A stretch of 6,219 nt of DNA from a virus (IMGVR_UViG_2713896736_000007); one strand, 5' to 3'. Shown: positions 2,304 to 4,241, numbered from the stretch's first letter. Made by a program: numbers and translations. Notes: a model not told the origin generated them from the letters alone.

Positions 2304-4241
2304 TCAGCCGCCGGACGCACTGCCGTAGTTCACTCCGGTGATCACCGCCACCGCCGCAGTACGGCGACGACGCCAGTTGATCCAGCGCTCCGCACGGATG
2401 GCCACGCTGCCTGTCTGGAACATGGAAACCAGCTCCACCGGGGACGGCGTGGTACTGTCGCCGCCCGGCTCAGACTGCATTTCCAGTGATGCCTCGCGGG
2501 ACATATCCACTGCCACGCCGCCGTCATCCGCCAGATAAATATCCGGGGCATTCACCAGCACCAGCTGGTCACCCACGTACTGGGAGACAATCACCGGCAG
2601 CCCCTGGAAGGAGCCACCCAGCAGGGTCATGTCCGGGTATTCCTTCTGACCCAGCGCATTTTTACGCATGGACAGTGCCAGGGCATTGGTGCTGGACATC
2701 AGCCAGACCGCACCGGTGGGCTGCAGGTTTGCTGCCACAAACTGTCCAAACGCAGCCTCGGCATCCGCATCCGGGTTACCGGTTGATGCCGTGCCCTTCA
2801 CATCATGGGTGATGGACGCCGGGGAGACATCTGCCACTGCGGCTTTTTTCGGGTCCACAAAGTCTGTATCCAGACGCGCCACCACCGCTTCCGCCAGCGC
2901 ATTACGGACCAGTGCATCAGCAGCCGGACTGGAAAAACGGATCAATTCTTCCGTCAGTACCGCAATGGCCGACACCTTCGCATGACTGAAGGTGATGGAT
3001 TCAAAATCAAACTTCGTCAGGGGTTTTGCCTTACCCTCACCCACCCAGCCGGCAGCACCGCCGGACACCTGGGCGTGCACACGGATATTGAACGGCACCT
3101 GACGAAGTGCAGGGATCCCGCCCTGACCAAATCGCCCGATAATGGTCTGCGGACGCAGGTAATCAATAAAGTCCTGTGCGTATTCCTGATATTCAGACAG
3201 GCTGCCTGCCCACTGCGGATCCGTGGTGGTCCCCGCGCCCACTGCCGATTTCAGGACATGATGCAGACGACTGTCATCCGGATACTGACGACGGGCCACT
3301 TCCAGGGCTTCAGATCGGACGCCTTTAGCCGCAGCCAGCGATTTGGCAAAGCGGGCGAAGCCAATCCCCTTATCCAGTTTCTGCTCCACACGGATCACCG
3401 GCGCAGAAGCCACCGCGGCCACATTCCCGTTACCGGCCTGTTTCACCGGCTGCGCCGTGGCGGCCTTACCGGCTTCCAGTTCACGCAGGCGCTTCAGGTG
3501 CGCATCCACCTGACGGATTTCCGCTGCGGTGTTGTCGTAATGCTCTTCCTCCTCCACATCCAGCGTGCGCCCTTCCTCTGCGGCTTTGGTCATGACCTCC
3601 TCAAGGGAGGCTGCCAGCGCTGCACGCTTGTTTTCAAAACTTTTAATCTGTTCGCCAATATTCATTATGGTCTTTTCCTTATGAAAAACGGTTGTTGACT
3701 GTGCCGCAGCGCCGGCAGAAGATGCGATTTTCACCACCGGTTTCCGGTTGCCGGACGCGGCAGAAAACGGGCGGTCGTAAGATTTAATGGTCCGGATGGT
3801 GCATTCCGCATTCGCGGGCACGGTGACGGCAGACACCTCCATCAGTTCCCAGCGCAGAAAATGCAGTCCGCCTCCGTCCAGAAAGGTGTATTCATGGGGA
3901 CGGAAGCCCACGGACAGCCCCCTGACCAGCCCGGTCTTAATGGCCGCCCAGACCTCATCCAGCCGGGCAGCCAGTTGCGACGGCATATCCGGTACGGGCT
4001 TCACCAGTGTTGCCGTGATTTCCAGCCCTTCGCTGACCCGGCGCACCGTACACTGCCCCACCGGGCGGGAATGGTCATGCTGCCAGAGAAACGGGATCGC
4101 ACTGCCAAACTCCGCGCCCTCCGGCTCCAGGATGTCACCATCCCGATCCGGAGAAGGCGTTGACGCAATCCCGGTGATCACCCGTTCATCCTCACTGAAG
4201 GATTTCACCGTCAGCAGGGAACAGGCCCGTTTAAGAGTCAC
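2304..4241 (-). CDS. single in-frame fusion: HK97-type prohead serine protease (Peptidase_S78/U35-like), helical scaffold/delta-like segment, HK97-fold major capsid protein (Phage_capsid-like)
   Basis: 645-aa ORF from the track. The N-terminal roughly 175 aa carry prohead-protease-like motifs (ITGIASTPSPDRDGDILEPEGA, IPFLWQHDH, WELMEVSAVTVPANAE). Residues from about 193 form a charged, helix-like stretch (MNIGEQIKSFENKRAALAASLEEVMTKAAEEGRTLDVEEEEHY...LKRLRELEAG). The C-terminal roughly 350 aa look like an HK97-family capsid protein (LTEELIRFSSPAADALVRNALAEAVVARLDTDFV...). Start is a GTG at 4241 preceded by AGGAGG with a 5-nt spacer. Confidence 0.9.
   Translation of the reverse strand: MTLKRACSLLTVKSFSEDERVITGIASTPSPDRDGDILEPEGAEFGSAIPFLWQHDHSRPVGQCTVRRVSEGLEITATLVKPVPDMPSQLAARLDEVWAAIKTGLVRGLSVGFRPHEYTFLDGGGLHFLRWELMEVSAVTVPANAECTIRTIKSYDRPFSAASGNRKPVVKIASSAGAAAQSTTVFHKEKTIMNIGEQIKSFENKRAALAASLEEVMTKAAEEGRTLDVEEEEHYDNTAAEIRQVDAHLKRLRELEAGKAATAQPVKQAGNGNVAAVASAPVIRVEQKLDKGIGFARFAKSLAAAKGVRSEALEVARRQYPDDSRLHHVLKSAVGAGTTTDPQWAGSLSEYQEYAQDFIDYLRPQTIIGRFGQGGIPALRQVPFNIRVHAQVSGGAAGWVGEGKAKPLTKFDFESITFSHAKVSAIAVLTEELIRFSSPAADALVRNALAEAVVARLDTDFVDPKKAAVADVSPASITHDVKGTASTGNPDADAEAAFGQFVAANLQPTGAVWLMSSTNALALSMRKNALGQKEYPDMTLLGGSFQGLPVIVSQYVGDQLVLVNAPDIYLADDGGVAVDMSREASLEMQSEPGGDSTTPSPVELVSMFQTGSVAIRAERWINWRRRRTAAVAVITGVNYGSASGG
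3663..3680 (-). promoter_or_regulatory. candidate internal ribosome-binding site and ATG (M193) inside the fusion ORF, at the protease/scaffold junction
   Basis: Minus strand reads cat-AAGGA-aaagaccata-ATG-aatattggc. AAGGA is at 3680..3676 and the in-frame ATG at 3665..3663, with a 10-nt spacer that is on the long side. The ATG sits exactly where a separate scaffold-plus-capsid polypeptide would begin. Confidence 0.3.

What the first reader, a model, noticed from the sequence alone, without database searches (positions are those of the whole stretch)
2304..4241. Prohead protease, scaffold-like segment and major capsid protein encoded as one polypeptide
There is no stop codon between the protease-like N-terminal domain and the capsid-like C-terminal domain. 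In HK97 itself the protease and capsid protein are separate gene products. A covalent fusion would deliver protease into the procapsid at a fixed ratio unless a second, shorter product is also made. Fusions of this kind exist in databases as far as I recall, so this is unusual rather than unprecedented.
Basis: partly seen in the sequence, partly recalled or inferred. Interest (0 to 1): 0.55.

Follow-up and report, generated by a model that had tools for sequence, protein, structure and literature searches.

The report
Protease–scaffold–capsid gene with internal start
This is the known fused "prohead protease/major head protein" gene of Shiga-toxin prophages of E. coli O157:H7, and a conserved ribosome-binding site inside it suggests it also makes a shorter, protease-free capsid protein, so the protease dose per capsid need not be fixed at one per subunit.

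Summary
Window 2304-4241 (minus strand) is one 645-aa ORF. It has an HK97-type S78 prohead protease domain (about aa 1-156), a disordered linker (157-192), a helical scaffold-like segment (from 193) and an HK97-fold capsid shell (about 341-645).

It is not an artefact. The window is 100% identical to several complete O157 chromosomes, and the fused form is kept in relatives down to 38% identity.

The fusion is not new. GenBank records call it "major head protein/prohead protease", PHROG 617 covers its full length, and unrelated fusions exist (Gifsy-2, actinophages).

What I add is indirect evidence for a second product. Met193 aligns with the start codon of the capsid gene in relatives where the two genes are separate. 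All 36 fused loci examined keep a start codon there with a Shine-Dalgarno core upstream (background 6-15%). The linker glycine codon that helps spell that core is the rare GGA in 15 of 15 loci. The surrounding mRNA is among the least structured in the gene.

The gene therefore most likely works as a nested pair, like lambda C/Nu3 or herpesvirus UL26/UL26.5: a 69-kDa protease-carrying subunit and a 48-kDa scaffold-capsid subunit. No protein data exist to confirm this. Interest is modest.

The parts
2304..4241 (-). Full-length ORF: 645 aa, 69.0 kDa, made of protease, linker, scaffold-like segment and capsid shell. GTG start at 4241-4239, stop at 2306-2304.
4247..4252 (-). Shine-Dalgarno AGGAGG for the full-length start, 5 nt before the GTG. 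Relatives have (A/T)GGAGG followed by ATG at the same place.
3774..4241 (-). S78 (HK97 gp4-type) prohead protease domain, aa 1-156. His55 is the codon at 4079-4077 and Ser110 the codon at 3914-3912. H55, S110 and E135 are each kept in 125-126 of 127 diverged fused relatives.
3666..3773 (-). Linker, aa 157-192. It is predicted to be disordered (pLDDT 24-39), is the most variable part of the protein and contains indels.
3676..3680 (-). Internal Shine-Dalgarno core AAGGA, spelled by the linker codons AAG-GAA, 10 nt upstream of the Met193 ATG.
3663..3665 (-). ATG of Met193, the proposed internal start. It is homologous to the start codon of the separate capsid gene in split relatives.
2304..3665 (-). 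Proposed nested product: aa 193-645, 453 aa, 48.2 kDa, made of the scaffold-like segment and capsid shell without the protease.
3459..3659 (-). Delta-domain-like helical hairpin, aa 195-261.
3222..3458 (-). aa 262-340: a disordered stretch (264-285) followed by three short helices (293-332). This is either further scaffold or the N-arm. The maturation cleavage site is presumably somewhere here but was not located.
   Evidence: the cleavage site is inference
2307..3221 (-). HK97-fold capsid shell domain, about aa 341-645.
4263..4280 (-). Terminator-like hairpin (GAACCGC-tgcg-GCGGTTT followed by a T-run) between the terL stop and the fusion gene start.
4305..5966 (-). Context: terminase large subunit, lying directly upstream of the fusion gene with no portal gene between them.
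1..2092 (-). Context: the portal gene lies downstream of the capsid gene and runs off the window. It is 859 aa in phage Stx2a_WGPS6. It contains no second protease or scaffold domain.

Best explanation
The gene is a nested, two-product head-assembly gene of a lambdoid Stx siphophage (genus Pankowvirus and many related prophages). Translation from the upstream start (AGGAGG-GTG) gives a 69-kDa subunit whose S78 serine protease is tethered by a roughly 36-aa flexible linker to the N-terminus of an HK97-like scaffold (delta) domain and capsid shell. Translation from the conserved internal site (AAGGA, 10 nt, then the ATG of Met193) gives a 48-kDa scaffold-capsid subunit equivalent to HK97 gp5. 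Inferred steps: both species co-assemble into the procapsid. Because the delta domain points inward, the tethered protease ends up inside without needing a separate targeting tail. After assembly the protease removes linker, scaffold and itself, leaving a mature shell protein of about 32-38 kDa. The relative strength of the two starts, rather than a fixed 1:1 ratio, would then set the protease dose. Shown here: the domain identities, the intact catalytic residues, the homology of Met193 to the capsid start codon of split relatives, and nucleotide-level conservation of a ribosome-binding site at Met193. Inferred: that the internal site is actually used, the product ratio, co-assembly, and the cleavage sites.
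For: 1) Domains.
2) Split relatives (Snodgrassella L024/L027, Acidovorax L023) start their separate capsid gene at 'MTIEEQI' or 'VNLQEQI', which aligns with M193-NIGEQI. Standalone capsid representatives P0253 and P0268 align their residue 1 to query residue 193.
3) In 21 fused loci, an SD core at -16..-5 is present in 21 of 21 at Met193, against a 10.3% background. The only other place in the alignment with the core in at least 95% of sequences is the annotated start. Other conserved in-frame Met codons have it in 1-9 of 21.
4) The linker Gly codon that forms the core is GGA in 15 of 15 loci. GGA is 9.7% of Gly codons in these genes and never exceeds 4 of 21 at any of 14 invariant Gly columns. 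Third bases at invariant four-fold sites are only 57% conserved.
5) Fifteen more loci at 47-60% identity all have the ATG plus the core. Of the 36 junction sequences, 33 are distinct, and the core is spelled by many different codon pairs.
6) The 60 nt around the ATG fall in the least-structured 0.2-2% of windows of the gene in 20 of 21 loci, and mostly in the top 0-5% in the further set.
7) In 127 fused representatives at 38-54% identity, a Met lies at the junction in 91% (13% elsewhere), or 98% counting Val.
8) The protease catalytic residues are kept in 125-126 of 127, so the long form is also needed.
9) Nested protease/scaffold genes are an established strategy in lambda, HSV-1 and the archaeal virus HFTV1 (bioRxiv 10.64898/2026.09.13.751334).
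Against: No protein-level or ribosome-profiling data for this gene were found in the searchable literature. The internal SD is weak in the enteric members (AAGGA, about -5.6 kcal/mol), while the upstream start has a strong AGGAGG, so the product ratio cannot be predicted and the short form might be the minor one. The A-richness and low structure could partly be a by-product of a Lys/Asn-rich linker. The loci are phylogenetically related, so the counts are not independent trials. A rough packing estimate, which assumes T=7 and an inner radius of 190-230 A, does not make an all-fusion procapsid physically impossible (36-64% of the cavity filled).
Confidence: 0.75

Rival explanations
1. There is a single product. 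Only the 645-aa polypeptide is made, every capsid subunit carries its own protease (fixed 1:1), and the Met193/SD signals are an unused relic of the ancestral separate capsid gene.
For: The fused frame is conserved across a very large family. The upstream start has a strong AGGAGG. The packing estimate does not exclude 415 protease domains inside a T=7 procapsid. All database records annotate a single CDS.
Against: A relic would decay. Instead the start codon and an SD core persist in 36 of 36 fused loci down to 46% identity, within the least conserved stretch of the protein. The rare GGA codon is fixed in 15 of 15 loci, many different codon solutions spell the core, and the mRNA there is exceptionally unstructured.
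Confidence: 0.15
2. The junction signals are conserved for a reason other than initiation. For example, an SD-like pause site could let the protease domain fold before the scaffold emerges, or the K-G/K-E and Met residues could form a protease cleavage site.
For: The conserved K-G/K-E dipeptide lies in the linker. From my own knowledge, HK97 protease cleaves after Lys in gp5.
Against: Amino-acid selection does not explain the fixation of the rare GGA codon. A pause site does not need an invariant start codon 7-11 nt downstream, and it does not explain minimal mRNA structure centred on that codon. In split relatives the same position is a genuine start codon.
Confidence: 0.07
3. The fusion is an artefact or a pseudogene: a sequencing error or a recent frameshift joined two genes in a decaying prophage.
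For: O157 genomes carry many defective lambdoid prophages. Truncated variants exist (P0007, P0008 and P0089), and an Arsenophonus copy is frameshifted (L019).
Against: The sequence is identical in many independently finished genomes. The gene is present in inducible, typed Stx phages with complete genomes. The fused frame and catalytic residues are conserved across Enterobacterales, Burkholderiales and an alphaproteobacterium.
Confidence: 0.01

Closest known systems
HK97 gp4 (S78 prohead protease) and gp5 (delta-domain major capsid protein)
   Same: Same protease family: Pfam PF04586, BLASTP E=4e-9, and the catalytic Ser/His positions line up. Same capsid family and fold: PF05065, TIGR01554 and Foldseek hits to HK97 structures. 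Both have a helical N-terminal scaffold domain fused to the shell protein.
   Different: In HK97 the two are separate, adjacent genes that follow the portal gene. Here they share one reading frame, the protease's C-terminal tail is replaced by a linker into the delta-like domain, the portal gene lies after the capsid gene, and the scaffold-like part is longer (about 100-150 aa against 102). Pairwise similarity to gp5 is not significant by BLASTP.
Gifsy-2 'tripartite capsid gene' (Effantin et al. 2010, Virology 402:355; abstract recalled from memory, paper not held)
   Same: The same three-part layout in one ORF, protease then a middle segment then capsid shell, in a lambdoid enterobacterial prophage. 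A candidate internal start lies just after its protease domain (Met221).
   Different: The parts are unrelated: a ClpP-family protease (PF00574) and a Phage_capsid_4 shell, with no sequence similarity to this protein (E=0.15). The architecture therefore looks convergent. In Gifsy-2 the portal gene precedes the composite gene.
Nested in-frame protease/scaffold genes: lambda C/Nu3, HSV-1 UL26/UL26.5, HFTV1 gp17/gp17.5
   Same: A long product carries the protease at its N-terminus. A shorter in-frame product that shares the C-terminus is made from an internal start and supplies the bulk assembly protein. Lambda has SD sequences at both starts (as described in bioRxiv 10.64898/2026.09.13.751334).
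   Different: In those systems the shared C-terminal part is only the scaffold and the capsid protein is a separate gene. Here the shared part would be scaffold plus capsid shell. For this gene the use of the internal start is inferred from sequence conservation only.
'Major capsid and protease fusion protein' of actinobacteriophages; NCBIfam NF045541 'prohead protease/major capsid protein fusion protein'
   Same: The same annotation concept, a protease fused to the capsid protein in one ORF.
   Different: These are different sequence families. NF045541 scores 54 bits against a cutoff of 525.

Membership tests
Peptidase S78 (HK97 gp4-type prohead protease) | Match to the family profile above the curated threshold | tested here: met
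   PF04586 scores 34.7 bits against a cutoff of 21 at aa 48-152. The stricter equivalog model TIGR01543 scores 46.4, below its cutoff of 59, so this is a family member but not an HK97 gp4 equivalog.
Peptidase S78 (HK97 gp4-type prohead protease) | Catalytic Ser and His conserved (gp4 Ser114 and His65; the identity of these residues is from my own knowledge) | tested here: met
   gp4 S114 aligns to S110 in GLSVGF. gp4 H65 aligns one position from H55 in WQHD. H55 and S110 are each kept in 126 of 127 diverged relatives.
Peptidase S78 (HK97 gp4-type prohead protease) | Herpesvirus-protease (assemblin) fold | tested here: inconclusive
   The top two PDB hits are the KSHV and HCMV proteases, but they are weak (E=5.5e-3 and 8e-2) and the model has only moderate confidence.
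Peptidase S78 (HK97 gp4-type prohead protease) | Proteolytic activity on the capsid precursor | not testable with these tools
   Requires biochemistry.
HK97-family major capsid protein with delta domain | Profile match above the curated threshold | tested here: met
   PF05065 scores 52.7 against 24.2. TIGR01554 scores 78.3 against 27.5.
HK97-family major capsid protein with delta domain | HK97 fold of the shell domain | tested here: met
   The model has mean pLDDT 77.9. Foldseek gives 287 PDB hits at E<=1e-3, led by the Bxb1, D3, HK97 and T5 capsids.
HK97-family major capsid protein with delta domain | N-terminal helical scaffolding (delta) domain | tested here: met
   Helices at aa 195-223 and 229-261 with pLDDT about 75-89. 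TIGR01554 aligns from aa 204.
HK97-family major capsid protein with delta domain | Removal of the delta domain at maturation; chainmail cross-link residues | not tested
   The cleavage site and cross-link residues could not be placed, because pairwise alignment to gp5 is not significant.
Nested in-frame protease/scaffold genes (lambda C/Nu3 type) | Protease at the N-terminus, with the assembly protein sharing the frame and the C-terminus | tested here: met
Nested in-frame protease/scaffold genes (lambda C/Nu3 type) | Internal start codon with its own ribosome-binding site | tested here: met
   36 of 36 fused loci have a start codon plus an SD core, against a 6-15% background. The GGA codon is fixed and the local mRNA structure is low.
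Nested in-frame protease/scaffold genes (lambda C/Nu3 type) | Two protein products actually made | not testable with these tools
   No proteomic or ribosome-profiling data were found.
Gifsy-2-type tripartite capsid gene | ClpP-family protease plus lambda-like/Phage_capsid_4 shell | tested here: not met
   Gifsy-2 has PF00574 plus PF25209. This gene has PF04586 plus PF05065. BLASTP between the two gives E=0.15.
NCBIfam NF045541 prohead protease/major capsid fusion | Score above the family cutoff | tested here: not met
   54 bits against a cutoff of 525.
PHROG 617 (major head protein) | Full-length match to the family profile | tested here: met
   E=3.3e-261, aa 1-639 aligned to profile positions 7-626 of 626.

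The most novel reading that the evidence does not exclude
The whole fused family (over a thousand 50%-identity clusters), and perhaps convergent fusions such as Gifsy-2's, are three-function, two-product nested genes. A weak-SD but unstructured internal start makes the bulk scaffold-capsid subunit, and an upstream start makes a protease-tethered subunit, so the protease dose per procapsid is set translationally. Lineages switch between fused and split forms by frameshifts in the linker while always keeping the capsid start site.
Probability: 0.65. Interest if true: 0.45.

Novelty: new member of a known kind. Interest (0 to 1): 0.35.

Why it matters
These head genes build the particles that spread Shiga-toxin genes among E. 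coli, and they occur in about a quarter of complete E. coli genomes. If the internal start is used, current annotations miss the protein that would be expected to supply most capsid subunits, although the product ratio is not known. It would also show how a phage can tether its maturation protease covalently to a minority of capsid subunits, replacing the non-covalent targeting tail of HK97 gp4. That would extend the lambda C/Nu3 and herpesvirus UL26/UL26.5 logic to a gene that also contains the capsid protein. It is an incremental point for capsid-assembly specialists, not a new principle.

Tried and rejected
- A generic anti-SD duplex-energy threshold did not discriminate: 22-28% of all codon positions passed, and several conserved protein motifs scored as well. 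I replaced it with a core-motif test, matched Met controls and codon-choice controls.
- The first AlphaFold run on the full length with 14 close homologues was poor (mean pLDDT 44.7, shell domain unresolved). A second run on aa 193-645 with diverse homologues worked.
- BLASTP of the capsid part against HK97 gp5 was not significant, so cleavage-site and cross-link residues could not be transferred.
- No sigma-70-like promoter was found inside or around the gene (0 found in 1900-4400), so I did not pursue a separate internal transcript of the HSV UL26.5 kind.
- The long portal protein was checked for a second protease or scaffold domain, and none was found.
- Papers that might already discuss this were not held: Effantin 2010, Liu & Mushegian 2004, Oh 2014, Veesler 2014. 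Prior mention of an internal start in such fusions therefore cannot be excluded.
- Searches for virion proteomics of phages 2851, BP-4795, YYZ-2008 or Pankowvirus found nothing relevant.

Full report
**Observation**

The window carries one open reading frame on the minus strand from 4241 to 2304. It is 645 codons long, starts with GTG and has no internal stop. AGGAGG lies 5 nt upstream of the GTG.

Pfam places Peptidase_S78 at aa 48-152 and Phage_capsid at aa 386-635, both above their gathering thresholds. NCBIfam's HK97 major-capsid model matches aa 204-584 at 78 bits against a cutoff of 27.5.

**What the window is**

The window is the head-gene block of lambdoid Shiga-toxin-converting prophages of E. 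coli O157:H7.
- It is 100% identical to several finished O157 chromosomes and is found in 1257 of 5426 complete E. coli genomes, usually in several copies.
- It is 95-99% identical to Stx phages 2851, BP-4795, YYZ-2008, 1717 and Stx2a_WGPS6.
- Many of those records name the gene 'major head protein/prohead protease'.
- In Stx2a_WGPS6 (genus Pankowvirus), head-tail adaptor, major tail and tape-measure genes follow it, which marks a siphovirus.

The gene order is terS, terL, fusion gene, a small ORF, then the portal gene. The portal gene therefore follows the capsid gene.

**The fusion is real but not new**

An artefact is excluded. The fused frame is kept in 21 bacterial genome loci at 46-77% identity (Enterobacterales, Proteus, Candidimonas, Reyranella). 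It is also kept in 15 viral contigs at 47-60% identity. An exhaustive search gave 1181 50%-identity clusters at E<=1e-30, and 127 of the top 150 representatives are 600-720 aa, nearly all of them matching the query end to end.

PHROG 617 covers the whole length at E=3e-261. Independent fusions are already catalogued:
- NCBIfam has a model named 'prohead protease/major capsid protein fusion protein', to which this protein does not belong (54 bits against a cutoff of 525).
- 'Major capsid and protease fusion protein' is a routine actinophage annotation.
- Gifsy-2 has a composite gene with a ClpP-family protease and an unrelated shell family.

**Anatomy**

- Protease domain. It aligns with HK97 gp4 (E=4e-9). 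gp4 Ser114 falls on S110 and gp4 His65 falls next to H55. That these are the catalytic residues comes from my own knowledge. H55, S110 and E135 are each kept in 125-126 of 127 diverged fused relatives.
- Models. The full-length model is poor overall but gives pLDDT 66-80 for aa 5-140 and 24-39 for aa 142-193, which looks like a disordered linker. A second model of aa 193-645 has mean pLDDT 77.9.
- Segments in the second model. It shows a helical hairpin (195-223, 229-261), a disordered stretch (264-285), three short helices (293-332) and a shell domain.
- Shell domain. It matches the Bxb1, D3, HK97 and T5 capsids at E down to 6e-14.
- Protease fold. The best PDB hits are herpesvirus proteases, but they are weak.
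- Portal. The 859-aa portal has no second protease or scaffold domain, so the fusion carries the only protease found in the genes checked here.

*Homology of Met193 to a real start codon.* Three distant relatives have separate genes. In Snodgrassella the protease ORF ends in the linker and the capsid ORF starts in another frame at 'MTIEEQINAV'. In Acidovorax the capsid ORF starts at 'VNLQEQIKRL'. Both align with M193-NIGEQIKSF of the fusion. Standalone capsid representatives (P0253, P0268) align their residue 1 to query residue 193. Met193 (ATG at 3665-3663) is thus homologous to the capsid gene's own start codon.

*Conservation of a ribosome-binding site.*
- In 21 fused genes the start codon is invariant (20 ATG, 1 GTG).
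- A Shine-Dalgarno core (AGGA, GGAG, GAGG or AAGG at -16..-5) is present in 21 of 21, against a background of 10.3% of codon positions.
- Across about 640 alignment columns, only the annotated start and Met193 have the core in at least 95% of sequences.
- Four other conserved in-frame Met codons have it in 2, 1, 9 and 3 of 21.

*Codon choice.* The core sits in the most variable, indel-rich part of the protein. Where a glycine codon contributes to it, that codon is GGA in 15 of 15 loci. GGA is 9.7% of glycine codons in these genes and never exceeds 4 of 21 at any of 14 invariant glycine columns. Third bases at invariant four-fold sites are on average only 57% conserved. This is a constraint on the nucleotides, not on the amino acids.

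*More diverged loci.* Fifteen more fused loci at 47-60% identity all show ATG plus the core. Of the 36 junction sequences 33 are distinct, and the GG of the core lies mostly 7-11 nt from the start codon.

*Local mRNA structure.* The 60 nt centred on the ATG is among the least structured 0.2-2% of windows in its gene in 20 of 21 loci, at -0.6 to -6 kcal/mol against gene means of -11 to -18. That is less structured than the annotated start.

*Protein-level conservation.* In 127 fused representatives at 38-54% identity, a Met lies within the six-residue junction window in 91% (13% on average elsewhere), or 98% counting Val.

**Interpretation**

The most likely reading (confidence about 0.75) is a nested gene with two products: a 69.0-kDa protease-linker-scaffold-capsid protein and a 48.2-kDa scaffold-capsid protein (masses).

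By analogy with HK97, where delta domains project into the procapsid interior (PMC10275583), a protease tethered to the delta domain's N-terminus would be delivered inside when the long form co-assembles with the short form. It would then remove linker, scaffold and itself.

This is the logic of lambda C/Nu3, HSV-1 UL26/UL26.5 and HFTV1 gp17/gp17.5, extended so that the shared C-terminal part includes the capsid shell.

**Caveats**

- No protein or ribosome-profiling data exist in the literature I could search.
- The internal SD is weak in enteric members, so the product ratio is unknown.
- The A-richness and low structure may partly reflect the linker's amino-acid composition.
- The loci are related, so the counts are not independent trials.
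- A rough packing estimate, which assumes T=7 and an inner radius of 190-230 A, does not exclude an all-fusion procapsid (36-64% of the cavity filled).
- I could not read Effantin 2010 or Liu & Mushegian 2004, so the idea may already have been suggested for related fusions.

**Verdict**

The finding is correct and its interpretation is sound. The fusion itself is already annotated and catalogued. What is added here is indirect but consistent evidence that the gene also encodes a shorter product from Met193. That places the family among the nested protease/scaffold genes. Interest is modest at 0.35.

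Noticed in passing
window 135-565 (minus-strand portal gene): There is a 162-bp (54-aa) tandem repeat, 2.7 copies at 95% identity, inside the long C-terminal extension of the portal protein. The portal is 859 aa in Stx2a_WGPS6, and only aa 54-382 match Phage_portal. The remaining roughly 470 aa have no Pfam domain. Many phage records match the window only from position 135, which suggests copy-number variation.
   Followed up: partly
window 1-6219; L024/L027: The head-gene order is unusual: terS, terL, protease-capsid, small ORF, portal. 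The portal gene comes after the capsid gene and nothing lies between terL and the protease. In the distant Snodgrassella relatives, terL, the protease gene, the capsid gene and the small ORF come in the same order (the portal gene was not checked there). In HK97 the order is terL, portal, protease, capsid.
   Followed up: partly
window 4263-4280, minus strand: An intrinsic-terminator-like hairpin followed by a T-run lies in the 63-nt gap between the terL stop and the fusion gene's start. HK97 has an annotated putative terminator just before its protease gene as well. The function was not examined.
   Followed up: no
window 2038-2259 (minus) versus 2043-2228 (minus): Two overlapping small ORFs lie between the capsid and portal genes. 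The 73-aa frame (MAKIRYLQGTHDA...) matches PHROG 829 (E=4e-39) and resembles the ORF after the capsid gene in Snodgrassella (MEIKYLKAMHDAAVGEVKDV...). GenBank AP012539, by contrast, annotates a 61-aa ORF whose length and position correspond to the other frame, which is possibly a mis-called frame. The function is unknown.
   Followed up: partly
L111 (Gifsy-2) 22471-24561, Met221 at about nt 23131: The unrelated Gifsy-2 ClpP-scaffold-capsid composite gene has an in-frame ATG just after its protease domain, with GAGGAG upstream and low local mRNA structure (top 3.7% of windows). This is a candidate nested start analogous to Met193. It is a single sequence and its conservation was not tested.
   Followed up: partly
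L019 (Arsenophonus endosymbiont) 3980-5901: The homologous gene is broken into at least five frames. It is a decaying prophage copy in an insect endosymbiont.
   Followed up: no
window 4239-4241: The E. coli O157 version starts with GTG, whereas the relatives at 46-78% identity examined here have ATG at the homologous position behind a similar (A/T)GGAGG. This may lower the yield of the protease-bearing long form in this lineage.
   Followed up: no
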